The notes: generated by a model from the letters alone, not told the origin. Counted from the stretch's first letter, positions 23,410 through 41,996 are shown. The stretch: 64,000 bases of DNA from Nanobdellota archaeon (GCA_018819345.1 JAHJQG010000064.1:33-64032); one strand, 5' to 3'. A program made the numbers and translations.

Positions 23410-24009
23410 ATGGGACTAAGTTGTATTCATTATATTACAATAACATTCTTCTCAGGGATCCTGATTGGAAAATTTTCCTGCGAAATTGGGGATTTTATAT
23501 CGAGAATTTTATCAATTATACTTTTCCCTAGAATTATAAGATTTGTTAAAAGAAATAAAGATTATGAATCAGAAGGAAAACACAGGGCAATAATAATAGC
23601 AAATGATTATAAATTCAATAAAGAAAGTTTTTATGTTGATGGTGCCGAGATTTTAATAAGGTATTTTCTAAAAAATAAAATTCCTTATAAAGTTTATGAT
23701 AAGATTAACAAACAAAAGTTTAAAGAAATCATTTTAAATAATAATATAGAACATGTTTATATATTTGGGCATGGTTCAAAACACAAAATCACAATTAAAA
23801 AGAAAGAATATTTGTTTTATTGTGAATTTGAAGGTTATCCTAAAAATAAAGAATTTATTGGACAATTTCATTGCAATGTTGGAGGAGGAAAATCTCTTGC
23901 AGAATACATAGCAAAAAATCCAAAAAAATGTTTTGTAACAAATAATATGAGATGGTTTGGTAATAACTGGGAAGATATCAAAAAATTAATTAAGAATTCT
24001 AAAATTTAA
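23410..24009 (+). CDS. hypothetical protein
   Basis: ORF only. Confidence 0.3.
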   Translation: MGLSCIHYITITFFSGILIGKFSCEIGDFISRILSIILFPRIIRFVKRNKDYESEGKHRAIIIANDYKFNKESFYVDGAEILIRYFLKNKIPYKVYDKINKQKFKEIILNNNIEHVYIFGHGSKHKITIKKKEYLFYCEFEGYPKNKEFIGQFHCNVGGGKSLAEYIAKNPKKCFVTNNMRWFGNNWEDIKKLIKNSKI

Positions 24010-24015
24010 TAAAGT

Positions 24016-24312
24016 TTAATCATCAACAGTAAATAATTTAGAATCATTTACATCAAAGAGTTTTATTCTTGCGCCTGCATCAAGCCAGCCATGTGCATAG
24101 CTCAGGGCCGCGAATGCATTCACATAATCATCTTTTTCCCTGAAGTATTTGGCATCTTTGTAGTAACGCTTGGCCATGTCAAGGAAATCAGCAGCAAACT
24201 CTTTCTTTGATTTATCTTTTGAGATATTGCCTCTGGCCTTTTTCAGTGCTTGGCCTGTAATATCAAAGTACTTCTCCAGCTTTTCATCTGTTATTTCTCT
24301 CATTCTATTCAA
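24016..24312 (-). CDS. conserved small archaeal protein (DUF357-like?)
   Basis: Helical 98-aa protein containing YAHGWLDAGARI. The family assignment is made from memory only. Confidence 0.35.
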   Translation of the reverse strand: MNRMREITDEKLEKYFDITGQALKKARGNISKDKSKKEFAADFLDMAKRYYKDAKYFREKDDYVNAFAALSYAHGWLDAGARIKLFDVNDSKLFTVDD

Positions 24313-24382
24313 AAAAATTCTTTTTGTTTTTATAGTTTTGGATTTAGAAAAGATTATATAGAACCAAGGTATAATAAATTAA

Positions 24383-25039
24383 ATGTTTCAATGGGATAAG
24401 ATATACAAAAAAGAAGGTAAGAAGTATGGGTATTATGATATATTTAAACCGCATGAAGATATGCCCAATGTATTGACTATCTTTAAAAAACAAAAGGTTA
24501 AAAGAGTTCTCAACTTAGGCTGTGGTGCTGGCAGAAATCTTGTTTATTTATTAGAAAAGGGCTTTGATATGTATGGCATAGATTGTGCACCTGAAGGGCT
24601 GAGAATCATCAAAGAGAGGTTAAAAAAGGAAAAAAGAAAATGCAACCTTAATTTAGGCAATATCTTCAATAAACTTCCTTATGAGGATAATTTTTTTGAT
24701 GCAGTGATTAGTGTTCAAGTCTTACAGCACGGTAAAATCAGTGAAATAAAAAGAGCAATAAAAGAAATTGAGAGGGTGCTGAAGCCAGGGGGGCTTATTT
24801 TTATAACCCTTAGCGGAAGAATTTCCAAGGGCAGGGTTAGACCTTACCTTATAAAGACAGCTAAAAAAATAGCTCCAAGAACATATGTTCCAACAATGGG
24901 CAATGAAAAAGGATTGACCCACTTTATCTATAATAAAAAACTTATAAAAAAACATTACCATAATTTTAAAATTCTCAAAATCTGGAAAGACAGCAGGGAT
25001 TATTACTGTTTTATAGCTCAAAATAAAAACAAGGCTTAA
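24383..25039 (+). CDS. class I SAM-dependent methyltransferase
   Basis: Motif I VLNLGCGAGRN and an acidic post-I residue. Confidence 0.7.
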   Translation: MFQWDKIYKKEGKKYGYYDIFKPHEDMPNVLTIFKKQKVKRVLNLGCGAGRNLVYLLEKGFDMYGIDCAPEGLRIIKERLKKEKRKCNLNLGNIFNKLPYEDNFFDAVISVQVLQHGKISEIKRAIKEIERVLKPGGLIFITLSGRISKGRVRPYLIKTAKKIAPRTYVPTMGNEKGLTHFIYNKKLIKKHYHNFKILKIWKDSRDYYCFIAQNKNKA

Positions 25040-25170
25040 CTACAAATCTCTATCATAAATGAAGAAATCATCTGGTTTAACAACTCTTTCCAGTTGAGAC
25101 TAATTTGTAACTATTTTTAAAAAGCAACAAAAACAAAAGGTTTATAAATTTTTATTTTAAGTAATTTAAA

Positions 25171-26442
25171 ATGGACACAGTAAATATAATTTATGTCAAA
25201 GCTCTTAGGGAAAATGGCCAGAAAGATATGCCGGACCAAAGAATAAAACAAGCAGTTGAGAATATAAATGAAACATACAAAAGAGTTGGTGTGCCATATA
25301 AACTGAAGTTATTTGATATTGAATCTTTTTTAAACAAGTTTAGCAAAAAAGAATTGACTGAAATCATTGGAACTGATGGCAGAAAATCAGACTTAATAGA
25401 AAAAATACAAGAGGAAATTCCATTTGAGGAAGCAAGAAGAAGAGAAGGAGTTATATTAAAAGATGGAGAATGGTACCATAATGACAAAAAGCTTGAACCC
25501 CTTAAGTTAGAAGACATAACAATTGATTATGAGAATTTTAAATTCATAAGGAAGTTTGATTTTCATCAAGATCCTGAAAAATATGATACAAATGGTTGGA
25601 AAATACATTGTATGTTTAATAAAAAAGATCAAAATAATATAATTCATCAAGTTAAGTATTCTAAGAAACAATTTGCTGAAAAATATGTTCCTAAATTAAA
25701 AAATAAAATCAAAGAAGTATTTGAAGACAAAGTAAAAAAATATAATAACATAAAAAGATTAGAAAATTTGATTAATGATTACTTAACTAATAGTTACTTA
25801 AAAGGAAATGTGGAGGCATTTAATAAAAATTACAAACCTTATGAGTTACCAAGCATTAAAATGATAGATTTATGTATGATTTATCTAAATTCCATACAAG
25901 ATAAACCAAAGAAGAAATTTGAGTTTGAAAGATTTATTGAAATAATAAATAATGGATTCAAAATAAATAGTGAAGGGTATTTAATAAGGATAAAACCTTC
26001 TCAGGGGTATGAATCGGCAGATTATCCCTATCTCAATAAACTAACTAAATTTATTAATCAACAAGAAGGTAATAATAAAAAATTATATGTATTAACAGAT
26101 AAATTTTCACCAAATGTAAAAATAATTCCCTCGGACAAATTATTTTACTTTATGTTTAGGCAATATAACGATTTTTATAGTGGTATAAGATGTGTAGGCA
26201 ACTTAAGCAACCTAAGAGAAGAAAGTGTAAGATTTCTATTAGAACATGAGTTGTGTCATTTGTTAGATAATGATTGTGATGATGTTGGGGACAGTAAATT
26301 TACTATTCATAGTATGAGTGATACAAGACTAATGTCTGCTCCGGCGCATTATGTTGATTTAAGAACTGGGAAGATTGATTTTAACTTAGGAAAAATTTCA
26401 GATGAGTCTGTAAGGGAAGCCTACAAAAACATAATAAAATGA
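25171..26442 (+). CDS. hypothetical protein, first gene of the accessory array; contains HELCH (HExxH)
   Basis: ORF of 423 aa, Lys/Asn-rich. The single HExxH occurrence EHELCHLLDNDCDD lies near the C-terminus. Confidence 0.4.
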   Translation: MDTVNIIYVKALRENGQKDMPDQRIKQAVENINETYKRVGVPYKLKLFDIESFLNKFSKKELTEIIGTDGRKSDLIEKIQEEIPFEEARRREGVILKDGEWYHNDKKLEPLKLEDITIDYENFKFIRKFDFHQDPEKYDTNGWKIHCMFNKKDQNNIIHQVKYSKKQFAEKYVPKLKNKIKEVFEDKVKKYNNIKRLENLINDYLTNSYLKGNVEAFNKNYKPYELPSIKMIDLCMIYLNSIQDKPKKKFEFERFIEIINNGFKINSEGYLIRIKPSQGYESADYPYLNKLTKFINQQEGNNKKLYVLTDKFSPNVKIIPSDKLFYFMFRQYNDFYSGIRCVGNLSNLREESVRFLLEHELCHLLDNDCDDVGDSKFTIHSMSDTRLMSAPAHYVDLRTGKIDFNLGKISDESVREAYKNIIK

Positions 26443-26472
26443 TATTTCTTATAAATTGTTTTGAATAATCTC

Positions 26473-26530
26473 CGGTTTATTTCTAAGAATTAACATTATG
26501 TTCGGAAAAATGCCTCTTTTTTCTCAGAAA
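26473..26530 (+). promoter_or_regulatory. conserved upstream element, copy A (CGGTTTAT...TTCGGAAAAATGCCTCTTTTTTCTCAGAAA)
   Basis: Near-identical to copy B at 29165-29223 and related to copies C and D. It is followed by an A/T-rich TATA-like stretch. Confidence 0.5.
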
Positions 26531-26724
26531 CTATTATTAAAACATTTTATTCCACTAGTCTGTGACTAGTGGTTTATAATTGAATAAAATGTGCTCAAGA
26601 GTGAGGAGGCCGAGCCAGCAGGGCGAGCATGCTGCCAGTCTATGACTGGCAGTGCCTCCGAGCTTTTGACAAATATTTATTTCATTTAAATGTTTATTAA
26701 AACAAATTTTCGAGGTAAAATAAA

Positions 26725-27129
26725 ATGGAAGAAAATATGTCTTATATTGCAAGTATATCACTTAGATTTGGAGGGGAGAGTATAATTAAAGATGTAACCA
26801 AAAAATTGAATAAAACACCCAATTTAACAATTGAGCAATTGATAAATTCCCTAATAAAAGATGAAGGGAATTTTAATGAAGAAGAAAAAGAGATAATGAA
26901 TTATATTAAGTTTGATATGCAAAGACGCAAAGAATCAGGATGGCATAGATTTAGATTAGGTGTAAAAGCATTAAATGAGTCTGGTGAATATAGGACTTTT
27001 CCAACCAATGATGGCGATAATATTACAAAAATAAACCGTACAGAAATAGCAAAAAACTACTTTGAACCAAGAAAAATTGAGGGTACGAGTTATAAAGGAT
27101 TGGATTTGGAGGTCTATGCAAGAGGATGA
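26725..27129 (+). CDS. small cysteine-free protein, paralogue A (ends ...LDLEVYARG)
   Basis: Aligns along its whole length with 29284..29724 (PNLTI, LIKDxGF, EEKEIM, LNExG, IAKxYFEP, GLxLEV). A GAGGT ribosome-binding site lies 8 nt upstream. Confidence 0.6.
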   Translation: MEENMSYIASISLRFGGESIIKDVTKKLNKTPNLTIEQLINSLIKDEGNFNEEEKEIMNYIKFDMQRRKESGWHRFRLGVKALNESGEYRTFPTNDGDNITKINRTEIAKNYFEPRKIEGTSYKGLDLEVYARG

Positions 27130-27161
27130 AAAAAACACATATAGCTTAATTATTGAATATT

Positions 27162-27224
27162 TTCCGTTTAAAAAGTAAAATCTGTAAATATAACGGAAAT
27201 TCTCATCTTTTTTCTTGGAAATGC
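27162..27224 (+). promoter_or_regulatory. conserved upstream element, copy C (AACGGAAATTCTCATCTTTTTTCTTGGAAATGC)
   Basis: Shares the CGGAAA-N14(T-rich)-GGAAA core with copies A, B and D. It lies about 35 bp upstream of the 27257 gene. Confidence 0.45.
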
Positions 27225-27256
27225 TTATTAAAAATAAGTGCTAATGTTATTTCAAG

Positions 27257-27763
27257 ATGGAATTAAAAAGAACCATGGGAATTTTGTTTTTGACAGGTGC
27301 TATTGCAGCAACAAGTTATCTTGGTGCCGGATGTGCAAAAACAGAGAAAACAAAACCCATTGTTCAGAAAAAGGTGATTGTGGTGACTGAAAAACAAGAG
27401 CAGCCAATGTATGGCATTGCCGGAAAAAATATTGATGAGTTTTTGGATTATACAGAACAAATTATTAAGGAAAATCATGAGGAGTTTAAGGATTACATTC
27501 TGAATATAAGCAAAATTGGTATTGACAAAGGTTATGATAAAGAGATAGCAAACATGTTCAGTGATGAGCTTCTAGAGAAAAGAATAAGTGAGATGCCTAA
27601 TGAGAGAAAGCTCAGGATAATAAAGCCATTAATAAGTGAAAAAATTGGTAATACATATAATAAAATTGTAGATTTTGCTGAAGAACAAAAGCCAAAAGTC
27701 AAAGAATTCTATAAAAACCTGGAAAAGAAAGCCAACGATTATCTAAAAGGGGGTGAAGAGTGA
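27257..27763 (+). CDS. putative secreted protein or lipoprotein
   Basis: Signal peptide with the lipobox-like LGAGC. Confidence 0.45.
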   Translation: MELKRTMGILFLTGAIAATSYLGAGCAKTEKTKPIVQKKVIVVTEKQEQPMYGIAGKNIDEFLDYTEQIIKENHEEFKDYILNISKIGIDKGYDKEIANMFSDELLEKRISEMPNERKLRIIKPLISEKIGNTYNKIVDFAEEQKPKVKEFYKNLEKKANDYLKGGEE

Positions 27764-28000
27764 ATGGGCCTTATCAGATTTGGCTTTAAGGTATTGAAGT
27801 ATTTTGCGATATTCTCCATTGGGTATTACATGGGTGGCGGATGCGAAAAAATAGACATAAATAATGAAATAAAAAAAGACATCAGTTATACAAGACCTGC
27901 TTATTACCAGACTGTTGATAAAAAAGTTATGAAAGATATCACACAACTTAATGGGCTTGAAAAAAGCCTAGCATTATATTATCCAATAAATAAAAAATAA
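27764..28000 (+). CDS. small putative lipoprotein
   Basis: Hydrophobic N-terminus followed by GGGC. Confidence 0.35.
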   Translation: MGLIRFGFKVLKYFAIFSIGYYMGGGCEKIDINNEIKKDISYTRPAYYQTVDKKVMKDITQLNGLEKSLALYYPINKK

Positions 28001-28006
28001 TAAAAG

Positions 28007-29095
28007 GTGAGAAAAATGGATGAAGATTTAGTAGAAAAAATTAAATCAAACAGAATGAATTGTTCAAAAAACAACCAAGGGTCAGTAATTGAAAAACTTA
28101 AAAAATATGGGGTTTTAGAAGATAGGTATAAAAATAAGTATTATCCAGAAGAAATCTCAATAGTAGCTACACTAAAAAATTCAAGAAGACCTTCAAGTGA
28201 GGCTGATTTCATTGGACTAGGAGAAACTGTGAAAGATATAGCTAAATTAAATCTGGAGATGAACAGAAAACTTCTTGCCGGTAAACCAATCCCATACAAA
28301 ATTTTTGTATATTCAGTAGATTTTATTAAAACAAAAATCTTTGGTAAAGAGGCATACTCAATAGAGGACATATTTGACAGACAAATAAATAATATAAAAA
28401 ACCTGGATTCAAACTTAACATGTATAATTTTTAGCTCAAGAAAGGAATTATGTAAATTAATAAAATATAGGGGCGAAGTAAATAAAGAATGGGAGGGTAA
28501 CATAAAAAAATATAATAAATTAGAGAAAGAAGGAAAAATAATAAAGCAATTATATTCAGAAGCAGATGAAGAATTTAAATCAACAAAAAAAGGTGATGAG
28601 AAATATTTTACTCTTAAGGATGCATGTGAAAACTTAAAAAGGGAGTTAGATGGAATTTCACACCAAAAAGATCTTGCCGCTAATAAAGTAAAAGACAGGG
28701 ATAAAGAAGATAATATTCTTAGGGATCTTGAAGACATGCTTACTACTGGAATAAAGGTTTGTGAAACAGTCAGTGATAAAACGGGGGGAATACTACGTTA
28801 TGTTATAAACACAAAAAAACAATGGGATACCCTCGTTTCCGGAGGCAGGATTGTTGAAGCATTATATGAATCTGTTGCCATGTTGGGTAATTATTCAAAT
28901 AATTTACATGGGAGATTAAATGAAGGTATAAAAAAGATGGGTGGCGTTGCAAATAATCCAAATGTCCTTAATAGCTATTATTTAAAAACACATAAAGGGA
29001 TTAAACAAATAGCAGATAATGTTTCAATGGCTCACTTTAATAGAGTTGAAAATTTGGATAATCAAATGAATGAGTATCTTAATAGTACTGATTAA
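28007..29095 (+). CDS. hypothetical protein (GTG start), coiled-coil rich
   Basis: ORF only. Confidence 0.35.
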   Translation: MRKMDEDLVEKIKSNRMNCSKNNQGSVIEKLKKYGVLEDRYKNKYYPEEISIVATLKNSRRPSSEADFIGLGETVKDIAKLNLEMNRKLLAGKPIPYKIFVYSVDFIKTKIFGKEAYSIEDIFDRQINNIKNLDSNLTCIIFSSRKELCKLIKYRGEVNKEWEGNIKKYNKLEKEGKIIKQLYSEADEEFKSTKKGDEKYFTLKDACENLKRELDGISHQKDLAANKVKDRDKEDNILRDLEDMLTTGIKVCETVSDKTGGILRYVINTKKQWDTLVSGGRIVEALYESVAMLGNYSNNLHGRLNEGIKKMGGVANNPNVLNSYYLKTHKGIKQIADNVSMAHFNRVENLDNQMNEYLNSTD

Positions 29096-29164
29096 TACAA
29101 CCCAAGATACATACCAATTATTTTATTTAATTTTTAATTATTTATTTAACAGCTGAATATTTTT

Positions 29165-29223
29165 CGGTTTATCTCTAAAGATTCACATTAACTTCGGAAA
29201 AATACCTCTTTTTTCTCGGAAAT
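29165..29223 (+). promoter_or_regulatory. conserved upstream element, copy B (CGGTTTATCTCTAAAGATTCACATTAACTTCGGAAAAATACCTCTTTTTTCTCGGAAAT)
   Basis: About 90% identical to copy A across roughly 58 bp. It is followed by CATATAAAAAG (TATA-like) and a GGAGGT ribosome-binding site before the 29284 ATG. Confidence 0.5.
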
Positions 29224-29283
29224 GCATATAAAAAGAAAATCATTCTTATTACTTAAAAAATTAAAAATTTTTGGAGGTAAAAA

Positions 29284-29724
29284 ATGGCAGATGAAAATGA
29301 AACGTATGTTGCAAGTGTAAGAAGTGCTATGAACCAGAATGTTGACCCTCTTACAAAAGAGGTCACTGAAAAGTTAATTGAAGAGCCAAACTTAACTATT
29401 GGTGGAATTATAGACTACTTAATAAAAGATGATGGTTTTAATGATGAAGAAAAGGAAGTAATGAAAGGAGTAAAAAAAGAACTAGATGATTCAATGGCAG
29501 CTCCTGAGCGTCTATCTATAAAGGTATTAAATGAGGGGGGAGATGGATATAAATCTTTCACAAATCAAAGGGGAGAAATGACCCAAGTAATAAAAAAAAC
29601 AGATATAGCAAAAGACTATTTTGAACCAGGAACAATTGAAGAGACGCCATATAATGGGTTAAATTTAGAAGTACATTTTATGAGAAAAGCTGGATCTAGA
29701 TTAGATTACATTCTTTCAAAATAA
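29284..29724 (+). CDS. small cysteine-free protein, paralogue B (...LNLEVHFMRKAG followed by SRLDYILSK)
   Basis: Paralogue of 26725..27129. It carries 9-10 extra residues after the aligned C-terminal Gly. Confidence 0.6.
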   Translation: MADENETYVASVRSAMNQNVDPLTKEVTEKLIEEPNLTIGGIIDYLIKDDGFNDEEKEVMKGVKKELDDSMAAPERLSIKVLNEGGDGYKSFTNQRGEMTQVIKKTDIAKDYFEPGTIEETPYNGLNLEVHFMRKAGSRLDYILSK

Positions 29725-29725
29725 G

Positions 29726-30970
29726 ATGAAACTGCCAAAATCTAGCTTTAGCAGCATTGCTGAAGAAGCTAAACTTTGCCTTATCTTAAATAATAGACTT
29801 TATACAGTTGAAGTAAGAGAAGAAAAAGGCAATAATTTTTTTTATTTTGCTAATAAAAAGTATTTATTGCAAGAGTCAGAAAGTCTTAAATCTATTGAAA
29901 GAATATACTTAAAAAACAATGAAATTGAATTTAAGTCAATTATTAATAACATATCAAAAAAAAGTTTAAAAGAAGATAACAACTTATTAAAAAAGGATAT
30001 ATTTGAATTACAAAAAAAATATGAACTCCTTGATTTTATAGTTAACAAAGTTTTTCCTCTCTATTCTAAAAACAAGAATAACATAAAATTGAAATCTAAA
30101 AACCAAAAACCAAATCAAAAATTAGAAGAAATTTTAAAACCAAAGATTGATAAACACAGGACTGAGAATCTTAAAGACGGCTTTGAATGCCTATTAAACA
30201 GGGATTATTCTATACTTGAAAAGAACATAATAAAAAATATTAATCTGCTTATATTTAATAGGAATATTTATATTACAAAAAAAATTCCAGAAAAAATTTA
30301 CAAAACAATAAGAAACAGATTTAGGATTAATAATATAAATTACTCATATAAATTCACTGGTTATTTAAAGGATTTAGAGAAAGAATACCTTAAAAATTTA
30401 TCAGATGAAATAACAAAATTTTCAAATCATAGTGGAAATCTTTTAAATGAAAAAATAAATTTGTTAAACAAAAAAAATAATTTTTCTGAGATAGTAAAAA
30501 AACAAATATACCAAGAAGGCCGCATTGGTTTTATTAAAAAAGGGCAAGACCATTATATTTTCCTTGAGCAAGAACCATTTGCTCTTAAATCAATTGATCA
30601 GTCTGATTATTATGTGTTTGAAAAATGTAAGGTTGGTGTTAAATTAAAATTAAATAATCATAAAATAGAACTTGAGTCACCTGTTGTAATTAATAAGTAT
30701 TCTCATCCCTTGCTTTCTGGCTTTGATATGCCAGAACAATATATTTGTACTGGAAACGGCATAAGTAGCAATGTGATAAATGATTTTAATGAAAAAAAAG
30801 ATTATGCTGGAATAGCATACTATCTTCTTAAAGTGGGAGGATTTGCTTTGAGGAACGGGTATTGTCCTGGAATGAATCCCCATCATCATCTAAATAGAAA
30901 CACCTTTTGTAATAATCTTACAACCCTTCAAGAAATAAACAAAAGAGGAGTTGTTGTTGAAAAACAGTGA
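29726..30970 (+). CDS. hypothetical protein; the C-terminal region carries HPLLSGFDMPEQYICTGNG
   Basis: ORF of 414 aa. An HP...C spacing is reminiscent of E2/UBC active sites, but this is weak. Confidence 0.35.
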   Translation: MKLPKSSFSSIAEEAKLCLILNNRLYTVEVREEKGNNFFYFANKKYLLQESESLKSIERIYLKNNEIEFKSIINNISKKSLKEDNNLLKKDIFELQKKYELLDFIVNKVFPLYSKNKNNIKLKSKNQKPNQKLEEILKPKIDKHRTENLKDGFECLLNRDYSILEKNIIKNINLLIFNRNIYITKKIPEKIYKTIRNRFRINNINYSYKFTGYLKDLEKEYLKNLSDEITKFSNHSGNLLNEKINLLNKKNNFSEIVKKQIYQEGRIGFIKKGQDHYIFLEQEPFALKSIDQSDYYVFEKCKVGVKLKLNNHKIELESPVVINKYSHPLLSGFDMPEQYICTGNGISSNVINDFNEKKDYAGIAYYLLKVGGFALRNGYCPGMNPHHHLNRNTFCNNLTTLQEINKRGVVVEKQ

Positions 30971-31829
30971 TAATATGAAAAAATTAGAATATATACTTGA
31001 AAATAATTCAAAAGAAAAAATAGATGAATTGTTTAGTGATTTAAAGATTACTGATTATGCTTATAAAAAAATAAAAGCATATGCTTCTCTAGCCTGCATA
31101 ACTGCTAATGCATCAATTGAATGTGGTGGTTATTTAGTAGCTCTTAAAGAGGATCAGGATTATATTGTAAAGGATGTGTATTTGTCAAAAGATCAAAAAG
31201 TAACAGGCGTAGAATATATCGTTGATTCAGAGCCAGATATGGATTTTCTAAAAGAAATCAAGAATGATGGATATAAAGTAATGGGGTGGTGGCATAGTCA
31301 TGGAAGTATGAATCCTTTTCACTCTGGAACTGATGATGATACATTCAAGAGCATTTATTATAATATTTTTCCGTATAATAAAAAGGAATCAAGTAGAGAA
31401 ATAATTCCTCTTTCAGGAGATTCATTTAAAATTGAGCATCAAACTGATAAAACAGGAAATAATTATGTATTTTTTAAATCAAATAATTTTCTTGAAGATG
31501 TAATTGAGATGAAGGTAGGTAATAATTTTAAATTAAATGATATTGAAGTCAAAGAAATTAAAATAAAAAAATTCAGAGGTATTTCATTTGCATATAGTCT
31601 AGTTGTGAATCGTTTTTATTCTGCAGCACCTTATGCCGAAGTAGCTATCAAACACCCTAAGACTAAGGAAATTAAAATTAACAAGGGGGTTAAAGTAACG
31701 GAAATAATCTCCAATCCAATGTCCTTAGATTATGAGAAAATATTAGATGAAATAAAAACAAGAATCATCTACAAAGGAAAATTTTTGGGGGAAATAACAA
31801 ACAAATATGCAGAATCTGGGGTGATCTAA
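30951..31829 (+). CDS. JAB/MPN (JAMM) metalloprotease, paralogue 1
   Basis: The upstream Glu is in IECGGYLVA. The JAMM motif HSHGSMNPFHSGTD matches H-x-H-x7-S-x2-D exactly. The ORF ends at TAA 31827-31829. Confidence 0.75.
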   Translation: MLLKNSDNMKKLEYILENNSKEKIDELFSDLKITDYAYKKIKAYASLACITANASIECGGYLVALKEDQDYIVKDVYLSKDQKVTGVEYIVDSEPDMDFLKEIKNDGYKVMGWWHSHGSMNPFHSGTDDDTFKSIYYNIFPYNKKESSREIIPLSGDSFKIEHQTDKTGNNYVFFKSNNFLEDVIEMKVGNNFKLNDIEVKEIKIKKFRGISFAYSLVVNRFYSAAPYAEVAIKHPKTKEIKINKGVKVTEIISNPMSLDYEKILDEIKTRIIYKGKFLGEITNKYAESGVI

Positions 31830-32084
31830 ATTCCAGAGATAACAGATACACAAGAAAGAATAGAAGGATGGAATCAAAAAAAACTTGATGATTCTTTAGT
31901 AACAATAATTGGGGCTGGACCATTATCCAATTTTGTTTTATCAAATCTTGTTGGTCTGCAAGTTGGAAATATAAGGATAATTAATAATGAAGATTATACT
32001 AATAATTCTAATGAATTCTTATTTTTTGATTATTATAACAAAAAAGAAAAAGTTAGGAAAGTTAAGCATCTTGAAAAAATAATT

Positions 32085-33338
32085 ATGCAAATGAATCCCA
32101 AAATAAGAGTTGGCGGATATTATTCTCCTCTTTTTTATGATTTAGTTGGCAAACCAAATATACTTATTGATCTTACAAATGACCCATGTTCAAAATTTAA
32201 GAGCATAAAGATTTCGGATAAATTGAAAATACCTTTTATTACTGCTTCTACAAGCAAGAATAAGGGCAAGGTGATGGTTTACACCCCTATGAGCAAGACA
32301 GAAAGAATAATTCTTTCTAAAAAGAACTATACGCAAAGCATAGATGAATATTTATTTCCTGATTTTGAAAATTGCCAACAGGGCAATATAACAAGCGGTC
32401 TGATTGCTGGATTAGTAACAGAGGAAATAAGAAAATCTGTAATTAAATTATATGATTATGATAAATTGATGAAAAAAGGAGTAACATACAACCTCCTGTC
32501 TAATAGGCGGTTCAAAGATGAATGTGAGATAACTCTTGGTATATCTGATTATCTGAATGAAAAAAACCTGTTTAAGAATAAAAAAGTTGCAATAATTGGT
32601 GCAGGTTCAATAGGAAATTTTGTTGGACTTGGTTTATCCCTAATGAATTTTGATAAGATATACTTAATTGATATGGATAAAATTGAGGAGAATAATAAGA
32701 ATAGGCAGATTCTTTACACTCTTGGGAATTATGTTGGTGAAAAAAAAGTTGAAATATTGTCTAGATTAATGAATAAAATAAATCCAACTACTCAATCTAT
32801 AGGAATTTATGGAAAATTAGGAAATAATCTTAATAAAGAAGAAAAAAGAAAACAAGTTAAATTAATTAATGAATCAGAATTTCTTAAGCTTGATTGTGAT
32901 TTGATTTTGGGTTGTCTTGATAATATTTCTGCAAGAGCATTTGCTAATAGGTTGGCTGTAAAAAACTCTATTCCTTACATAGATGGAGGAACTAGTCCTT
33001 TCTCTGGACAGGTAAGAGTCTATAGTCCTGGAAAAACAGCATGTTTAGATTGTCAGGAGAACATTTATTCTCAGGCAATTGAAGAGCAAAATAAAGAAGA
33101 AATTTCTGACCATTGTACTGCAAATGATCACGAGCCAAGTGTCGTCATGTCAAACCAGATAATTGGCGCAGCAATTCTGGGTGAGATAAGAACACTATTT
33201 TATCCGGAAGTTTATGGACAACCAGTGATGAATGGCATGCTATACAACTCTTTTGATCGAGATAGGCTTGTTTTGAATAAGATCAAATGTAAACCAAATA
33301 AAGATTGTCTTTGCAGTAAAAAATTTTATAATAAATAA
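32085..33338 (+). CDS. ThiF/MoeB/E1-like adenylyltransferase; the N-terminus may extend upstream to 31830
   Basis: KVAIIGAGSIGNFVGLGL...IYLIDMDKIEENNKNRQ (GxGxxG, D.D, NRQ), then a CLDC...C cluster. The 85 in-frame codons upstream at 31830-32084 have no canonical start and encode IIGAGPLSNFV...IRIIN. Confidence 0.7.
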   Translation: MQMNPKIRVGGYYSPLFYDLVGKPNILIDLTNDPCSKFKSIKISDKLKIPFITASTSKNKGKVMVYTPMSKTERIILSKKNYTQSIDEYLFPDFENCQQGNITSGLIAGLVTEEIRKSVIKLYDYDKLMKKGVTYNLLSNRRFKDECEITLGISDYLNEKNLFKNKKVAIIGAGSIGNFVGLGLSLMNFDKIYLIDMDKIEENNKNRQILYTLGNYVGEKKVEILSRLMNKINPTTQSIGIYGKLGNNLNKEEKRKQVKLINESEFLKLDCDLILGCLDNISARAFANRLAVKNSIPYIDGGTSPFSGQVRVYSPGKTACLDCQENIYSQAIEEQNKEEISDHCTANDHEPSVVMSNQIIGAAILGEIRTLFYPEVYGQPVMNGMLYNSFDRDRLVLNKIKCKPNKDCLCSKKFYNK

Positions 33339-33340
33339 AA

Positions 33341-35626
33341 ATGATAAATAAAATAAAAAATAAAAAATTAGTAGAAATAATTAGAAGAAGAAATGAAGAA
33401 AAAAATAAATTTAAGGATAATCATAAAAAAGAAAATTTGTTTAAGATTAAACCAATATTTAATAAAATAAAAATAAAAAAAAGTGCTTTATTAAAAGCAA
33501 ACTTCTATTCTACGATAGCACCAATATTATTTAATAAATCAGTAGAAGCGATGGGCTATTTAGTTGCACCAAAAGGAATCAATGAAGATGTTGTTAATGA
33601 TATCTATTTATCCCATAATCAAACGGTTACATCTTCAACATGTACTGGTGATCCTTCTTCTGAGATGAATTCATTCAAAAAAATTCAGAGTGAATGTTCC
33701 AAAATAATAGGATGGTGGCATAGTCATGGACTTGATTATGGGCCATTTCATTCTTTAACTGATGTAGAAACTTTTGAAGGAATTTCTTATAGCATATTTC
33801 CTAATAATAAGATTAGTATAGATAATTTTGTTGATATAAGTAATTTGGATGATAGTGCTGGTTTAAGTTATTCTCAAAAAGACGATAAGAATTATTTAAT
33901 GATAAATTCAGAGAATAATGATCCTATTTTCAGGTTATCAATAGGTAAAATCAATTCAGACATTGTGCCTCTTCTTAAAGATATCAAGATAAATAAAGTT
34001 GAAAAAGCAGATCCTATAAAAATTTCTTTTAGTTATAGCATGGTGACCAACAGCAAAAATATGCAGCCTTATTTAGAAGTTTCTTATAAATGTAAAGGAG
34101 ATGAAAAAATAAATTATGTAAAAGGAAAAGATGTTACTCTAGAGGTTATAGATGATGAAAAGCTTCAATTTGAAGATTACAAGAGATTAGTTGATGATGT
34201 GTCAAAAAGAGTCCACTATAACGGAAAACTTCCAACTAGGAATATATCAGACTATGAATTAAGAAAGATCATAAACGAAGTAGAAACAAGGGTTAATAAT
34301 TTTAATATGACTGTAGTTAAGCCTTCTGAAAAAAAGGAGGAAATTAATAAGAGTTTAGAAAGCATAGTGACAAAAACCCCTGAAGAAAAATTAAAAGACA
34401 AAGGTGAAGAACAAAAAACTGTGTATAAGAAAGACATTTTAAGTGAAGATGTAAAACAATTACAACCAGTAAAATATAAGGATAAGTTAGAGAATTTAGC
34501 TGAAGAGAAAAAAACTATTGAATCTCAAAGAGAAAAAGTTGTACACAAAATAAAAGATAATAACTTAGAGGAAATTTTAGATAAGTACAACAATCATAAA
34601 GAATTAACTCGAAAACAAATATGCAATGAATATAATATCAATAATTATACTCTTGACAAAATTCTAAGAGAAGCAGAAAATAAGGGTTATAGAATAGATA
34701 GAAGAGCAAATAAGATTTCTGATGAACATAAAGCAGATATTATTAATTTGTATAATAACACAAATGTTAAAGTTAAAGACTTACGCAATGAATTAAATAA
34801 AAACAGACAAGAAAATGAGCCAGAGAAAAAATTCAGCACATCTACACTTTACAGGATCCTTCATAAATATGAAAATAATGGAAATAATGTGAACTGGAGA
34901 AGGAAAAATAATAAAAAAGAGCCGCCAAATATAATTAGGTATAATCCTATCAATTACATAAGTAACATCTTAAAAGATTATTCTGCAAAAACAAAGGGTT
35001 TCATAAAAAGGGCTGTGCAAAAATATTGGAAAATTGGTCTTATAAGCGCATTATCCCTCGCAATAGGAGCTGGCTCACTGATGTATGCTACTCGTAAGCC
35101 AAACAAACAAATCAACTATACTGAACCAACTAAAAAAATAGAACAGATTATAGAAAAAGAAAATACTGCTCCTTTAGTTGTTTATAATCCTAATAACAAA
35201 GTAAATTATGCTGGAGAGGATATTACCCAACATATTGAAAATAACAAAACAGCTACAGACAATCAAGCTAACAAAAGAGAGTATATGATTCAGAAAGGGG
35301 ATACTCTTTGGGATATTATGGATAAAGAAACTGGAAAGCCAGGGTTATGGGAAATAGTTTATGCAACTAATGAAAGCACAGCAAGTAATCAAAATCAAAA
35401 AAACAGGCAGCAGAATATTAGGGAGTTTGGAAAAAAATACAATATAGAATCATTGAAAAATGCAGGAATTAATGGCTCTCTGAAGCCATATGAACTAAAA
35501 GACCAATGCAAAATTAAGGACAAAACCAAAATTGAATTGAGCAAAAGCATTTCTGATGATATATCCAAATTAAATCCTCAACTTCAAAAAGAATTTAACA
35601 AAATTTTCTACAAGGCTTCAGGTTAA
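33341..35626 (+). CDS. JAB/MPN (JAMM) metalloprotease paralogue 2, with a C-terminal TM helix and LysM domain
   Basis: EAMGYLVA and HSHGLDYGPFHSLTD (JAMM). A middle region is paralogous to JAB1. A TM segment IGLISALSLAIGAGSLMYA is followed by the LysM-like YMIQKGDTLWDIM. Confidence 0.7.
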   Translation: MINKIKNKKLVEIIRRRNEEKNKFKDNHKKENLFKIKPIFNKIKIKKSALLKANFYSTIAPILFNKSVEAMGYLVAPKGINEDVVNDIYLSHNQTVTSSTCTGDPSSEMNSFKKIQSECSKIIGWWHSHGLDYGPFHSLTDVETFEGISYSIFPNNKISIDNFVDISNLDDSAGLSYSQKDDKNYLMINSENNDPIFRLSIGKINSDIVPLLKDIKINKVEKADPIKISFSYSMVTNSKNMQPYLEVSYKCKGDEKINYVKGKDVTLEVIDDEKLQFEDYKRLVDDVSKRVHYNGKLPTRNISDYELRKIINEVETRVNNFNMTVVKPSEKKEEINKSLESIVTKTPEEKLKDKGEEQKTVYKKDILSEDVKQLQPVKYKDKLENLAEEKKTIESQREKVVHKIKDNNLEEILDKYNNHKELTRKQICNEYNINNYTLDKILREAENKGYRIDRRANKISDEHKADIINLYNNTNVKVKDLRNELNKNRQENEPEKKFSTSTLYRILHKYENNGNNVNWRRKNNKKEPPNIIRYNPINYISNILKDYSAKTKGFIKRAVQKYWKIGLISALSLAIGAGSLMYATRKPNKQINYTEPTKKIEQIIEKENTAPLVVYNPNNKVNYAGEDITQHIENNKTATDNQANKREYMIQKGDTLWDIMDKETGKPGLWEIVYATNESTASNQNQKNRQQNIREFGKKYNIESLKNAGINGSLKPYELKDQCKIKDKTKIELSKSISDDISKLNPQLQKEFNKIFYKASG

Positions 35627-35627
35627 A

Positions 35628-36320
35628 ATGGATTTGTGGGAAATAATAAACAAGAGAATAATAAGAAAATCACAAAAGAAAGATAATGATAGCCTTCTAA
35701 ACAGGATTAAAAAGCAGAATTCAGAAAATAAGTTGAAATGTATTAGGAAGAGCAACCAAAATACACACCTCATTGAAGAAATCAAAAAAGCTTATCATAA
35801 AAAAATTTTATATGTTCCTGATTTTAATATTGATGATATTAAAAAGGATTATAATTTTTTACTAACTGACAAAAGTGTTGAAAACCCCTTTATAATAAAT
35901 TCTGAACTTGTAAAGATAATTAAGGATTATACTGCTAATATAAAGAATGATGAGGAAAAAGCAAAAAGAATATTTAATTGGATACACCAAAATATAGAAT
36001 ATGATAACTTAAGGAATGATAATAGATATCAAAACTCAAAGGAAACTTTAGAGCATAGACTAGGAATTTGCGGCGAGATGGCTTTTTTATATATAACAAT
36101 GGCACGGGCAGCAGGGCTAAAGTCAAAATATGTAAGTGTTAAGGTTGACTGCGATAACATAAAAGTTAATCATGGATGTGCTGTGGTTTATGTTCAAAAT
36201 AATCCTATTCTTGTTGATCCTGCTTATAATAAGTTTGATATTCATCATAGGAAATACAGTATCTTAAATGATGATGATATCACTAAAAATTTTGTTTACT
36301 GGAGAAATGGAAAATCATAA
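35628..36320 (+). CDS. transglutaminase-like (papain-fold) protein
   Basis: Cys-His-Asp core: GICGEMA, NHGCAVVY, LVDPAY. Confidence 0.6.
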   Translation: MDLWEIINKRIIRKSQKKDNDSLLNRIKKQNSENKLKCIRKSNQNTHLIEEIKKAYHKKILYVPDFNIDDIKKDYNFLLTDKSVENPFIINSELVKIIKDYTANIKNDEEKAKRIFNWIHQNIEYDNLRNDNRYQNSKETLEHRLGICGEMAFLYITMARAAGLKSKYVSVKVDCDNIKVNHGCAVVYVQNNPILVDPAYNKFDIHHRKYSILNDDDITKNFVYWRNGKS

Positions 36321-36374
36321 AGGTGAATTAAGATCAAAAAAGAAGATGAAAATCAATTTAACTCAGAGAAAAGT

Positions 36375-37877: not shown

Positions 37878-37878
37878 A

Positions 37879-39948: not shown

Positions 39949-40039
39949 ATAAGGGATTATAACATATGTTACAAGACAACACACACTTTAAATAGCATTA
40001 GTCTCAAATTCAAATATTTTTCTTTTAAAATCGAAAGAA

Positions 40040-40102
40040 TTACGATTATTATGTCAATATTACGGATTTAACGGAAATTCGCGTCTTTTTTCTTGAAAAT
40101 TC
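40040..40102 (+). promoter_or_regulatory. conserved upstream element, copy D (AACGGAAATTCGCGTCTTTTTTCTTGAAAATTC)
   Basis: Same core as copies A-C. It lies about 30 bp upstream of the radical SAM gene. Confidence 0.45.
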
Positions 40103-40133
40103 TTATTAAGAATGTAAGAGTTATATACATAAT

Positions 40134-41522: not shown

Positions 41523-41560
41523 CGATAATTTATTAAACTCCAAATTTTCACTTTATATTT

Positions 41561-41956
41561 ATGAGAGCATACTTAGCAATAAAATTTCATGAGGACTATA
41601 GAAATAAGAGATTAATAGAAGAAATACTAGATGCCTTAGATAAATCTGGCTTTGAAACAACCACAATTGTAAGGGATTATGAAAAATGGGGAAAGATAAG
41701 ATTCAAGCCGAAAGAACTAATGGATTTAGCTTTTAAGTTAATAAGGGAATCAGATTTTTTAATAATAGAATTCTCAGAAAAAGGAATTGGACTTGGTATA
41801 GAGGCAGGCTATGCATATTCAATGAACATACCAATTATTATACTTGCTAAAAAAGGTTCTGATATATCCGAGACAATGAAGGGCATAGCTAAAGAATTGA
41901 TATTCTATGAGAAACCAGAGGAATTAGAACAGAAATTAAAAGAAATTCAAATTTAA
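41561..41956 (+). CDS. nucleoside 2-deoxyribosyltransferase-like protein
   Basis: A 131-aa flavodoxin-like fold pattern: YLAIKF...GLGIEAGYAYSMNIPIIIL. Confidence 0.4.
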   Translation: MRAYLAIKFHEDYRNKRLIEEILDALDKSGFETTTIVRDYEKWGKIRFKPKELMDLAFKLIRESDFLIIEFSEKGIGLGIEAGYAYSMNIPIIILAKKGSDISETMKGIAKELIFYEKPEELEQKLKEIQI

Positions 41957-41996
41957 TGAGATTTTCATAAAAACCTTTATAAATAACCTGTTTTTT

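What the first reader, a model, noticed from the sequence alone, without database searches (positions are those of the whole stretch)
26725..29724. Two paralogous cysteine-free small proteins end at an aligned glycine, and the second has a short cleavable-looking tail
The 26725..27129 protein (134 aa) and the 29284..29724 protein (146 aa) align end to end. Paralogue A terminates ...GLDLEVYARG at its stop. Paralogue B reads ...GLNLEVHFMRKAG followed by nine more residues, SRLDYILSK. A terminal hydrophobic strand ending in Gly, with an optional C-terminal extension, is the hallmark of ubiquitin-like modifiers and their precursors that are processed by JAB/DUB peptidases. Two such peptidases are encoded downstream. 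Neither protein has Cys, which is compatible with a carrier or modifier role.
Basis: partly seen in the sequence, partly recalled or inferred. Interest (0 to 1): 0.6.

Follow-up and report, generated by a model that had tools for sequence, protein, structure and literature searches.

The report
Ubiquitin-like conjugation operon in a DPANN archaeon
The two small paralogous proteins are most likely a new, very divergent ubiquitin-like tag, encoded in tiny symbiotic (DPANN) archaea beside an activating enzyme, a probable conjugating enzyme and two trimming peptidases; the layout matches bacterial antiviral "Bil" ubiquitination operons, but no step has been shown experimentally.

Summary
The two genes are real paralogues: 44% identity, E = 4e-31, no cysteine. 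A ends ...LEVYARG. B ends ...LEVHFMRKAG followed by SRLDYILSK. The Ubl-precursor reading is partly supported.

For:
- The family is confined to Woesearchaeota/Nanoarchaeota, with 25 credible clusters.
- It is repeatedly linked to the same module: small protein, a ~400-aa protein with an invariant YxHPxL-x8-9-IC motif (E2-like), a JAB peptidase, and an E1. Relatives only 24% identical still keep it.
- This is the BilA-B-C-D gene order.
- In 21 of 27 representatives a Gly or Gly-Gly lies 4-8 residues after the last strand, followed by tails of 0-28 residues. BilA shows the same pattern.
- The AlphaFold model (pLDDT 83) has ubiquitin-like domains as its best neighbours in two libraries, but weakly (E about 1e-2).
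- The E1 is really a 502-aa tandem ThiF protein with an inactive then an active adenylation domain and an invariant loop cysteine. Its N-terminus is missed by ORF calling.

Against:
- The fold evidence is weak and covers the whole protein, not only the last 75 residues.
- The B tail is conserved, not disposable.
- Copies at A's position in sister genomes end ...MRHMD, without Gly.
- The E2 assignment rests on a motif only.

Verdict: a new variant of a known kind. Interest 0.6.

The parts
26725..27129 (+). Paralogue A, 134 aa. It ends at Gly134 (codon 27124-27126) with no tail. It is a lineage-variable second copy of the small protein.
   Evidence: ORF. It is 44% identical to B, E = 4e-31. Sequence relatives P0014 (69% identical) end YARG and P0015 (63%) ends PIGW. 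Positional counterparts in sister genomes end MRHMD or CCPAPDGERTK, and L019/L020 have no second copy.
29284..29694 (+). Paralogue B, folded domain plus linker, residues 1-137, up to Gly137. It is the predicted ubiquitin-like (expanded beta-grasp) body and the ancestral operon member.
   Evidence: AF2 gives pLDDT 83.1 and pTM 0.78, with order beta-beta, helices, beta, short strands, short helix, beta. The top Foldseek PDB hit is 9m1k_E (E = 8.9e-3, probability 0.99); hit 3 is a GFP-ubiquitin fusion. BFVD hit 2 is a ubiquitin-like domain protein. B is present in every related operon.
29695..29721 (+). C-terminal tail of B, SRLDYILSK (residues 138-146). It is the putative pro-peptide or docking peptide removed by a JAB peptidase.
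   Evidence: pLDDT is below 50. The motif GL[DE]Y[IL]LxK is conserved with synonymous codon changes. Family-wide, tails of 0-28 residues follow the Gly or Gly-Gly.
29726..30970 (+). 414-aa protein with a C-terminal E2-like domain. The invariant motif YSHPLLSGFDMPEQYIC lies at 30698-30748, with candidate catalytic Cys341. The N-terminal ~260 aa have no recognisable function.
   Evidence: Y325, H327, P328, I340 and C341 are invariant. The motif is present in L004, L006, L012, L015, L018, P0022 and P0023. hhalign against canonical E2s aligns only HP(N)...C, at E = 0.11. No Pfam or PDB sequence hit. AF2 failed, pLDDT 37.
30951..31829 (+). JAB1, a 292-aa JAMM metallopeptidase. Glu lies in ECGGYL at 31119-31136 and HSHGSMNPFHSGTD at 31293-31334. 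A C-terminal domain is shared with JAB2.
   Evidence: Pfam Prok-JAB 7.5e-10, 39.1 bits against a cut-off of 25. Best PDB sequence matches are Pyrococcus JAMM1 and Rpn11. NCBIfam desampylase 3.5e-6, below its cut-off. Motifs.
31830..33338 (+). E1-like enzyme, 502 aa when read from ATT at 31830; the ATG ORF 32085-33338 is a truncation. The N-terminal ThiF-like domain lacks the Asp and Arg-Gln motif (GAGPLSN at 31911-31931). The C-terminal active adenylation domain has GAGSIGN at 32598-32618 and DMDKIEENNKNRQ at 32670-32708. CLDC lies at 33042-33053, the invariant loop Cys in DHC at 33108-33116, and CLC at 33306-33314.
   Evidence: Upstream coding sequence is conserved in L001, L004 and L011, starts right after TAA, and follows a GGTGAT Shine-Dalgarno-like site. 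Pfam ThiF rises from 140 to 171.9 bits. The first 190 aa hit E. coli ThiF 1zud at E = 8.5e-6. Best PDB matches are UBA3, MccB, SAE2 and UBA5.
33341..35626 (+). JAB2, 761 aa. It has an N-terminal JAMM domain (HSHGLDYGPFHSLTD at 33719-33763, an x8 variant), weak HTH-like matches, one predicted transmembrane helix (residues 565-583) and a weak LysM-like C-terminal part.
   Evidence: Pfam Prok-JAB 18.8 bits, below its cut-off, plus weak HTH and LysM matches. NCBIfam LysM 1e-3. Motif conserved in orthologues. Transmembrane scan.
35628..36320 (+). Transglutaminase-like (Cys-His-Asp fold) protein, 230 aa, a recurrent neighbour of the module.
   Evidence: Pfam Transglut_core 1.4e-17. GICGE at 36063-36077. 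It is adjacent to family members in L015, L018 and the P0036 contig.
27257..29095 (+). Three conserved upstream operon genes of unknown role: a 168-aa protein with a lipobox-like start, a 78-aa small membrane or lipoprotein-like protein, and a 362-aa helical protein.
   Evidence: Same order in L001-L006 and L011. No family hits.
25171..26442 (+). 423-aa protein with an HExxH-like motif (HELCH) that precedes A. It is part of the variable 5' cassette.
   Evidence: Sequence. The L011 counterpart has HEFGH, and the two align only there, at E = 0.15. No Pfam family.

Best explanation
A and B belong to a new, sequence-orphan family of ubiquitin-like proteins, about 135 aa of expanded beta-grasp. They serve as the tag of a Bil-like conjugation module in Woesearchaeota/Nanoarchaeota. 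All steps below are inferred.

1. B is made as a precursor. A JAMM peptidase (JAB1 and/or JAB2) cuts in the small-residue hinge, KGG|SG in relatives and KAG|SR in this window. This exposes a C-terminal Gly.
2. The single-chain E1, with an inactive then an active adenylation domain, adenylates that Gly. It takes it as a thioester on the invariant crossover-loop Cys (DHC, 33108-33116).
3. The tag passes to the invariant Cys341 of the 414-aa E2-like protein. Its long N-terminal part would choose targets, as proposed for Bil E2s, which have no E3.
4. The tag is attached to target lysines, and the JAB enzymes reverse this.

A ends at the mature boundary and would need no processing. In sister genomes, copies at A's position stop at the same boundary but with MD instead of GG. 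These second copies are therefore probably fast-evolving variants or non-conjugatable versions. The biological role is unknown. It could be antiviral defence by analogy with Bil, or a cell-envelope function suggested by the membrane-anchored JAB2, the LysM-like parts and the transglutaminase-like protein.
For: Shown:
- A and B are paralogues.
- The family is small and confined to DPANN archaea: 25 credible clusters among 1.84 billion representatives (26 at E <= 1e-3, one of them a low-complexity false hit), and every cluster that carries a source name is called Woesearchaeota or Nanoarchaeota.
- Linkage of small protein, ~400-aa YxHPxL..IC protein, JAB and ThiF is conserved in the window lineage. 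It also holds in distant relatives: L012 in the same order (24% identity) and L015 with E1 and JAB swapped plus the transglutaminase-like gene.
- A Gly-less member, P0030, is an orphan without E1 or JAB nearby.
- Gly or Gly-Gly lies 4-8 residues after the last strand in 21 of 27, followed by variable tails of 0-28 residues such as LGGR, SGGRHK, GLGGYK and QQGGFDGKIRA.
- Second copies in three subclades terminate within about 3 residues of B's GG.
- AF2 is confident (pLDDT 83.1, pTM 0.78) with a disordered tail. Top neighbours are ubiquitin-like domains in PDB and BFVD.
- The E1 is tandem ThiF with invariant Cys residues.
- JAB1 has an intact JAMM motif above the Pfam cut-off.
- No other ORF in the 24-42 kb region looks like an alternative Gly-ended tag: among the called genes only A and the 761-aa JAB2 end in Gly.

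From the literature: the Bil operon is Ubl, E2, JAB and an E1 with IAD-AAD-CYS domains. BilA has a conserved Gly followed by up to nine residues that the JAB removes (PMC11601596; bioRxiv 10.1101/2023.09.26.559546).
Against: - There is no profile similarity to ubiquitin, NEDD8 or SUMO.
- Six of 27 representatives have no Gly in the +3..+9 window, including P0037, which sits next to a JAB.
- No single Gly column is invariant even in the close clade, and window B has lost the Gly-Gly.
- B's tail is under amino-acid-level selection, unlike BilA's non-conserved tails.
- The E2 identity rests on a motif, gene position and low-confidence secondary structure only.
- The E1 lacks the ~80-aa CYS insertion of BilD and eukaryotic E1s.
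- There are no expression or biochemical data.
Confidence: 0.6

Rival explanations
1. A and B are not the conjugated moiety. They are non-covalent partners of the module, such as an adaptor, regulator or target. The Gly-rich stretch is only a flexible linker to a short C-terminal docking peptide ([YF]-[IL]-L type). The E1, E2-like and JAB enzymes act on another substrate.
For: The tail GLDYILxK is conserved at the amino-acid level. Hydrophobic Y/F-I/L-L-like motifs recur in longer tails of distant members (KYILLQ, LYLLNK, EYLIKK). Six of 27 members lack Gly. Positional A copies end in MRHMD. The fold match is weak.
Against: Many members end 1-3 residues after Gly-Gly with no motif to tether: LGGR, IEGR, AEGCS, SGGRHK. 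A linker to nothing would not be conserved. No other small Gly-terminated candidate is encoded in the operon. In the compact L012 module the family member is the only gene besides the E2-like, JAB and E1 genes.
Confidence: 0.2
2. This is CBASS-like self-regulation. The small protein is a sensor or effector whose own C-terminus is ligated to a partner by the E1 and E2 to switch it on, as Cap2 does with the CD-NTase. The JAB enzymes antagonise this. It would not be a general tag.
For: JAB1 and the E1 give their PADLOC hits to the CBASS JAB and E1-E2 models. The protein is larger than a classical Ubl, with a helical insertion of about 45 residues.
Against: No nucleotidyltransferase or other enzymatic signature was found in A or B. 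E1 and E2-like are separate genes in Bil order, not a Cap2-type fusion. The PADLOC hits cover only generic E1 and JAB cores.
Confidence: 0.1
3. A and B are ThiS/MoaD-type sulfur carriers. The E1 adenylates them to form a thiocarboxylate for cofactor or tRNA thiolation.
For: The E1's adenylation domain matches ThiF and MoeB models, though below their cut-offs. The proteins combine a beta-grasp-like fold with Gly near the C-terminus.
Against: No rhodanese domain, sulfurtransferase or cofactor-biosynthesis genes lie in the cluster. An E2-like protein with an invariant Cys, two JABs and a tandem E1 are not features of sulfur-relay systems. The best E1 matches in PDB are UBA3, SAE2 and UBA5 rather than MoeB or ThiF.
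Confidence: 0.05

Closest known systems
Bacterial Bil (BilABCD) ubiquitination-like antiphage operons
   Same: The gene order is the same: Ubl-like, E2-like, JAB, E1. The E1 is a single chain with an inactive N-terminal and an active C-terminal adenylation domain. The tag has a conserved Gly or Gly-Gly followed by a short tail, which in Bil the JAB removes. No E3 gene is present.
   Different: The hosts are archaeal (DPANN). The tag is ~135 aa with a large helical insertion and has no detectable sequence similarity to known Ubls. The tail is conserved within the B clade. The E2-like protein is ~400 aa and matches no E2 profile. The E1 has a short crossover loop with one invariant Cys instead of an ~80-aa CYS domain. 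The module also carries a second, membrane-anchored JAB, a transglutaminase-like protein, lipoprotein-like genes and a variable second tag copy. It sits in a syntenic chromosomal position rather than an obvious defence island. Homology to Bil proteins themselves was not tested.
Archaeal sampylation (SAMP1-3, UbaA, HvJAMM1 / PfJAMM1)
   Same: Archaeal. A JAMM peptidase is closest by sequence to JAMM1 and desampylase. The E1 is ThiF-related. The tag would be activated at a C-terminal Gly.
   Different: SAMPs are small beta-grasp proteins ending in a free Gly-Gly and use no E2. UbaA is a single-domain homodimeric E1; the NCBIfam UbaA model scores 41 bits against a cut-off of 450. Here there is an E2-like protein, a tandem E1 and a precursor tail.
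Eukaryote-like Ub/E1/E2/RING/Rpn11 operon of Caldiarchaeum subterraneum and Asgard archaea
   Same: An archaeal operon that combines a tag, an E1, an E2 and a JAMM peptidase.
   Different: Those components are recognisable by sequence as ubiquitin, UBA1-like, UBC and RING. Here the tag and the E2-like protein are sequence orphans and no RING protein is present.
Bub (6E/DUF6527) and Type II CBASS Cap2/Cap3 systems
   Same: Prokaryotic E1, E2 and peptidase modules. The PADLOC CBASS JAB and E1-E2 models hit JAB1 and the E1 core.
   Different: Bub E1 and E2 lack catalytic Cys and come with a DUF6527 serine protease. CBASS has an E2-E1 fusion and a CD-NTase. None of these features is present here, and both the E1 and the E2-like protein keep an invariant Cys.

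Membership tests
Ubiquitin-like (beta-grasp) protein modifiers | Beta-grasp fold | tested here: inconclusive
Ubiquitin-like (beta-grasp) protein modifiers | Gly or Gly-Gly at the mature C-terminus, free or followed by a short removable tail | tested here: met
   A ends in Gly. B has Gly137 plus a 9-residue tail. 21 of 27 cluster representatives have Gly, and 10 have Gly-Gly, at +3..+9 after the last strand. The feature is not universal, and positional A copies in sister genomes lack it.
Ubiquitin-like (beta-grasp) protein modifiers | Covalent attachment to targets through E1-dependent activation | not testable with these tools
   This needs biochemistry or proteomics.
Bil (BilABCD) operons | Operon encoding a Ubl, an E2, a JAB peptidase and an E1 | tested here: inconclusive
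   The order small protein, 414-aa protein, JAB1, E1 matches BilA-B-C-D. JAB and E1 are confirmed. The Ubl and E2 identities are only probable.
Bil (BilABCD) operons | E1 with IAD-AAD-CYS architecture | tested here: not met
   The IAD-AAD tandem is present. The crossover region between CLDC and PSVV is only ~28 residues with one invariant Cys, so there is no ~80-aa helical CYS domain.
Bil (BilABCD) operons | Sequence homology to Bil proteins; antiphage activity | not tested
   No Bil sequences or profiles were at hand. PADLOC 2023 gave only CBASS JAB and E1-E2 hits. No Bil chains appear among the PDB sequence matches listed for JAB1 or, in the best 60 of 63, for the E1.
E2 / UBC-like conjugating enzymes | Conserved His followed about 10 residues later by the catalytic Cys (HPN...C) | tested here: met
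   Y-x-H-P-x-[LIFA]-x8-9-I-C is invariant in 8 orthologues down to about 19-28% identity. The His-to-Cys spacing is 13-14 residues, and Leu, Phe or Ala replaces the Asn.
E2 / UBC-like conjugating enzymes | UBC fold: a four-strand beta-meander flanked by helices | tested here: inconclusive
   AF2 failed, pLDDT 36.8. Its secondary structure shows 4 strands, then the HP..C loop, then 3 helices, which is compatible but unreliable. The criterion is from PMC1779556.
E2 / UBC-like conjugating enzymes | Significant profile similarity to E2 families | tested here: not met
   No Pfam hit for 7 members. No PDB profile hit.
JAB/JAMM metallopeptidases | E...HxHx7SxxD motif and a profile match | tested here: met
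   JAB1 scores 39.1 bits on Pfam Prok-JAB, above the 25-bit cut-off, with an intact motif. JAB2 has an x8 variant conserved in its orthologues and scores below the cut-off, 18.8 bits.
E1 / ThiF-MoeB adenylating enzymes | Rossmann GxGxxG motif, the Asp and Arg-Gln nucleotide motif, and a ThiF profile match | tested here: met
   Pfam ThiF 1.6e-50 for the 502-aa form. GAGSIGN and DMDKIEENNKNRQ are present in the C-terminal domain.
Archaeal SAMP / UbaA sampylation | Small tag with a free Gly-Gly, a single-domain UbaA E1, and no E2 | tested here: not met
   The NCBIfam UbaA model scores 41 bits against a cut-off of 450. The E1 is tandem, an E2-like gene is present, and the tag carries a tail.
Bub (6E/DUF6527) | E1 and E2 without catalytic Cys, plus a DUF6527 serine protease | tested here: not met
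   Invariant Cys residues are present in the E1 and the E2-like protein. No DUF6527 hit in the operon.

The most novel reading that the evidence does not exclude
DPANN archaea carry a self-contained ubiquitination-like cascade built from parts that are unrecognisable by sequence. These are an expanded beta-grasp tag with a conserved regulatory pro-peptide, a new E2 family with a ~260-aa target-recognition arm, and a eukaryote-style single-chain pseudo-dimeric E1. The cascade is coupled to a membrane-spanning JAB peptidase with an extracellular LysM-like part and to a transglutaminase-like enzyme. It would then tag envelope, host-contact or viral proteins in these episymbionts. The variable second copies, which stop at the cleavage point with MD or other ends, would act as non-conjugatable decoys or competitors.
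Probability: 0.25. Interest if true: 0.78.

Novelty: new variant of a known kind. Interest (0 to 1): 0.6.

Why it matters
Full E1-E2-tag-peptidase cascades outside eukaryotes are known from a few bacterial defence operons (Bil, Bub, CBASS) and a few archaea with recognisably eukaryote-like genes. This module would add a third kind. It is archaeal and chromosomal, it occurs in genome-reduced DPANN symbionts, and its tag and E2 are invisible to Pfam, NCBIfam and PADLOC. It also shows a single-chain E1 with inactive and active adenylation domains in archaea. That architecture has been called a hallmark of eukaryotic E1s and of BilD, so it bears on where ubiquitination machinery arose. Practically, it gives a testable four-protein set (B, JAB1, E1, E2-like) for reconstitution. 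It also flags that the E1 gene is mis-called in public annotations because it starts at a non-canonical codon.

Tried and rejected
- AF2 of the 414-aa E2-like protein with 8 sequences failed, pLDDT 36.8. It was not used for a fold search.
- Profile comparison of the family with ubiquitin, NEDD8, SUMO1 and SUMO2 found nothing.
- The E2-like domain against four canonical E2s matched only the HP..C motif, not significantly.
- Pfam, NCBIfam and PADLOC gave no family for A, B, the E2-like protein, the 362-aa protein or the HExxH proteins.
- A PDB profile search with the family gave only chance-level hits.
A metagenome scan with the A-type alignment found nothing.
- P0045, 406 aa with 5 matched stretches, looked like a possible poly-tag. 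It is a low-complexity repeat protein and was rejected as spurious.
- Stop-codon read-through making a JAB1-E1 fusion was considered, because both are in one frame in the window. It was rejected because JAB and E1 are in different frames in L004 and L011 while the TAA-ATT junction is conserved.
- A RiPP or MccB-like reading was considered because MccB is a good E1 match. It was set aside: the match covers only the adenylation core, and the nearby radical-SAM gene (40134-41522) is absent from the sister loci.

Full report
**Source and setting.** The window comes from a low-GC archaeal genome. The B protein is identical to a hypothetical protein of a "Nanoarchaeota archaeon" MAG. Ribosomal protein and Cbf5 genes flank the region. 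The finding lies inside a long run of genes on the + strand, from about 25 to 40 kb. This run has slightly lower GC (27-31%) than most of the rest of the window.

**Checking the observation.**
- Both ORFs exist as described.
- They are clear paralogues: 44% identity over 133 columns, E = 4e-31.
- A ends ...GLDLEVYARG. B ends ...GLNLEVHFMRKAG followed by SRLDYILSK.
- Neither has Cys. Several homologues do, so this is not a family property.
- Two JAMM-type peptidases lie downstream. JAB1 is above the Pfam cut-off and has an intact E...HxHx7SxxD motif. JAB2 has a conserved x8 variant and scores below the cut-off.
- The "aligned glycine" needs a 3-residue gap. A's Gly is 4 residues after the shared LEV and B's is 7 after it.

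**The family.**
- A word-indexed search of 5.8 billion proteins found 10 relatives, or 16 with a profile.
- An exhaustive HMMER scan of 1.84 billion cluster representatives found 26 clusters at E <= 1e-3. One of these, P0045, is a low-complexity false hit.
- Every cluster that carries a source name is called Woesearchaeota or Nanoarchaeota.
- There is no Pfam, NCBIfam, PADLOC or PDB sequence match.

**C-termini across the family.**
- I aligned 27 representatives and read what follows the last conserved strand, Y.GL.LEV.
- Twenty-one have Gly at +3..+9 and ten have Gly-Gly or longer. The background in the same proteins is 36% and 2% of 7-residue windows. The binomial values are 1e-5 and 7e-11, uncorrected for relatedness.
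- What follows the Gly run varies from nothing (A) to 28 residues. Many tails are very short: LGG|R, IEG|R, AEG|CS, SGG|RHK, GLGG|YK.
- This matches the pattern reported for BilA, a conserved Gly followed by up to nine residues that the operon's JAB removes.
- Two observations differ from BilA. In the B clade the tail GL[DE]Y[IL]LxK is conserved through synonymous codon changes, so it is a functional peptide. Also, window B is the only close-clade member with KAGSR instead of KGG[SF]G.

**The second (A-position) copy.**
- A profile scan of all 26 fetched loci shows that every operon has a B-type copy directly upstream of the ~400-aa gene.
- The upstream second copy is variable. It ends YARG in the window lineage. 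It ends [KRE]MRH[MI]D in the closest sister genomes, whose B is 80-88% identical. It ends MCCPAPDGERTK in L011. It is absent within 4 kb in L019 and L020, and L004 has no second copy.
- A's sequence-level relatives keep a terminal or near-terminal Gly. P0014 is 69% identical and ends YARG. P0015 is 63% identical and ends PIGW.
- MRHMD aligns with MRKGG. These copies stop exactly at B's presumed processing point, which supports that point as the end of the domain.

**Fold.**
- AF2 on a 13-sequence alignment gave pLDDT 83.1 and pTM 0.78, with residues 136-146 disordered.
- The order of elements is a beta hairpin (8-14, 23-26), helices (28-72), a strand (77-82), short strands, a short helix (109-112), then a long C-terminal strand pair (114-132). 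This is compatible with a beta-grasp carrying a helical insertion.
- In Foldseek against PDB, the best hit is 9m1k chain E, 89 residues, at E = 8.9e-3, probability 0.99, target-normalised TM 0.56. I take this chain to be the ubiquitin-like domain of tubulin cofactor E. That is an inference from the entry title and chain length. The third hit is a GFP-ubiquitin fusion. No hit reaches E <= 1e-3.
- In BFVD, the second hit is a "ubiquitin-like domain-containing protein" at E = 1.5e-2, probability 0.95.
- The alignments span about 130 columns, so the similarity covers the whole protein rather than only the last 75 residues.
- Profile comparison with ubiquitin, NEDD8 and SUMO found nothing.

**Gene neighbourhood.**
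- In the window lineage the order is lipoprotein-like 168 aa, 78 aa, 362 aa, B, 414 aa, JAB1, E1, JAB2, transglutaminase-like. This order is syntenic in L001-L004, L006 and L011.
- Distant family members keep the core. L012 (P0042, 24% identical to B, on a 936-kb archaeal contig) has small protein, 392 aa, JAB, ThiF.
- L015 (P0026, on an 843-kb contig) has small protein, 380 aa, ThiF, JAB, transglutaminase-like.
- L018 and the P0036 contig have transglutaminase-like, small protein, ~400 aa.
- A Gly-less member, P0030, is an orphan with no E1 or JAB nearby. Another Gly-less member, P0037, does sit next to a JAB.

**The ~400-aa protein.**
- Its only universally conserved Cys lies in Y-x-H-P-x-[LIFA]-x8-9-I-C. 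This motif is invariant in eight orthologues down to about 19-28% identity.
- It resembles the E2 signature (F/Y)HPN...C. hhalign against four canonical E2s picks exactly this pairing, but at E = 0.11, which is not significant.
- There are no Pfam or PDB hits.
- AF2 failed, pLDDT 37. Its secondary structure (four strands, the motif loop, three helices) is compatible with the UBC layout used by Iyer et al. 2006 to recognise prokaryotic E2s.
- I call it E2-like, with membership unproven.

**The E1.**
- The ATG ORF (32085-33338) is a truncation. The frame stays open and coding back to ATT at 31830, directly after a TAA.
- The junction, the amino-acid sequence upstream (with synonymous changes) and a GGTGAT Shine-Dalgarno-like site are conserved in L001, L004 and L011. 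In L004 and L011 the JAB gene is in another frame.
- The 502-aa form raises the Pfam ThiF score from 140 to 172 bits. Its first 190 residues hit E. coli ThiF at E = 8.5e-6.
- The N-terminal domain keeps GAGPLSN but lacks the Asp and Arg-Gln motif. The C-terminal domain has GAGSIGN and DMDKIEENNKNRQ.
- This is a tandem of inactive and active adenylation domains, described as a hallmark of eukaryotic E1s and of BilD.
- CxxC...CxC and a loop Cys (DHC) are invariant. There is no ~80-aa CYS insertion.
- The best PDB sequence matches are UBA3, MccB, SAE2 and UBA5, ahead of MoeB and ThiF.

**Interpretation.**
- The gene order tag, E2-like, JAB, E1 is that of BilA-B-C-D.
- The most economical reading is a Bil-like conjugation module whose tag is the A/B family. 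A JAB trims B at the small-residue hinge. The E1 adenylates the exposed Gly and thioesters it. The E2-like protein carries it to targets. The JABs reverse the modification.
- A would be a ready-made version.
- The Gly-less second copies in sister genomes are probably non-conjugatable variants.
- All catalytic steps are inferred.
- The role is open. It could be defence by analogy with Bil, or an envelope-related function suggested by the membrane-anchored JAB2, the LysM-like parts and the transglutaminase-like neighbour.
- I give this reading 0.6.
- The rivals are a non-covalent partner with a docking tail (0.2), CBASS-like self-ligation of a sensor or effector (0.1) and a sulfur carrier (0.05).

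**Novelty.** Three full-text searches of the held library found no description of such a system in DPANN archaea. Several features separate it from Bil:
- The tag and the E2-like protein are sequence orphans.
- The E1 lacks the CYS domain.
- The tail is conserved.
- The module has extra parts.

I therefore file it as a new variant of a known kind, not as a Bil member. Interest is 0.6.

Noticed in passing
window 31827-32087: The E1 gene is about 85 codons longer than any ATG/GTG/TTG ORF. Coding sequence runs from ATT at 31830, directly after the JAB1 stop TAA, behind a GGTGAT Shine-Dalgarno-like site. The TAA-ATT junction and the upstream peptide are conserved in L001, L004 and L011. This implies a non-canonical start codon. 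Gene callers truncate the protein and miss its N-terminal ThiF-like domain.
   Followed up: yes
window 25171-27129; L011 3642-5162; L001 about 6600-7832: The 5' end of the operon is a variable cassette. An HExxH-motif protein (HELCH in the window, HEFGH in L011, no Pfam family) is followed by a second copy of the small protein. That copy's C-terminus differs between closely related genomes (YARG, MRHMD, CCPAPDGERTK), and it is absent in L004, L019 and L020.
   Followed up: partly
window 33341-35626: JAB2 combines a JAMM domain (HxHx8SxxD, with a one-residue insertion conserved in orthologues), a region shared with JAB1, weak HTH-like matches, one predicted transmembrane helix (residues 565-583) and a weak LysM-like C-terminal part. 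This would be a membrane-spanning deubiquitinase-like protein. It also ends in Gly (...YKASG).
   Followed up: partly
window 29701-29712 and 33728-33739: Most B tails carry GLDY (LDY in window B, where an Arg replaces the Gly), and GLDY also sits inside JAB2's JAMM motif (HSHGLDYGPFHS; GLDH in orthologues). This is probably coincidence.
   Followed up: no
window 36375-39948: Two large proteins of 500 and 689 aa follow the transglutaminase-like gene and have no family match. Sister genomes have different proteins there (313 and 450 aa). This is a second variable zone at the 3' end of the cluster.
   Followed up: partly
window 40134-41522: A B12-binding radical-SAM gene lies between the cluster and the undecaprenyl-diphosphate synthase gene. 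It is absent at this position in L001 and L003.
   Followed up: no
window about 24000-42000: GC is 27-31% across the cluster, against about 30-37% in most of the flanks. The cluster nevertheless sits at the same chromosomal site (after Cbf5, Lit and DUF357, before UPPS) in several related genomes. It therefore looks vertically inherited rather than recently mobile.
   Followed up: partly
L016 8001-9183: A Gly-Gly-less family member (P0030, ending ...ARWKGDQNYA) stands alone next to a 256-aa protein carrying a LysM-like sequence stretch (read by eye), with no E1 or JAB nearby. It is an orphan branch of the family.
   Followed up: partly
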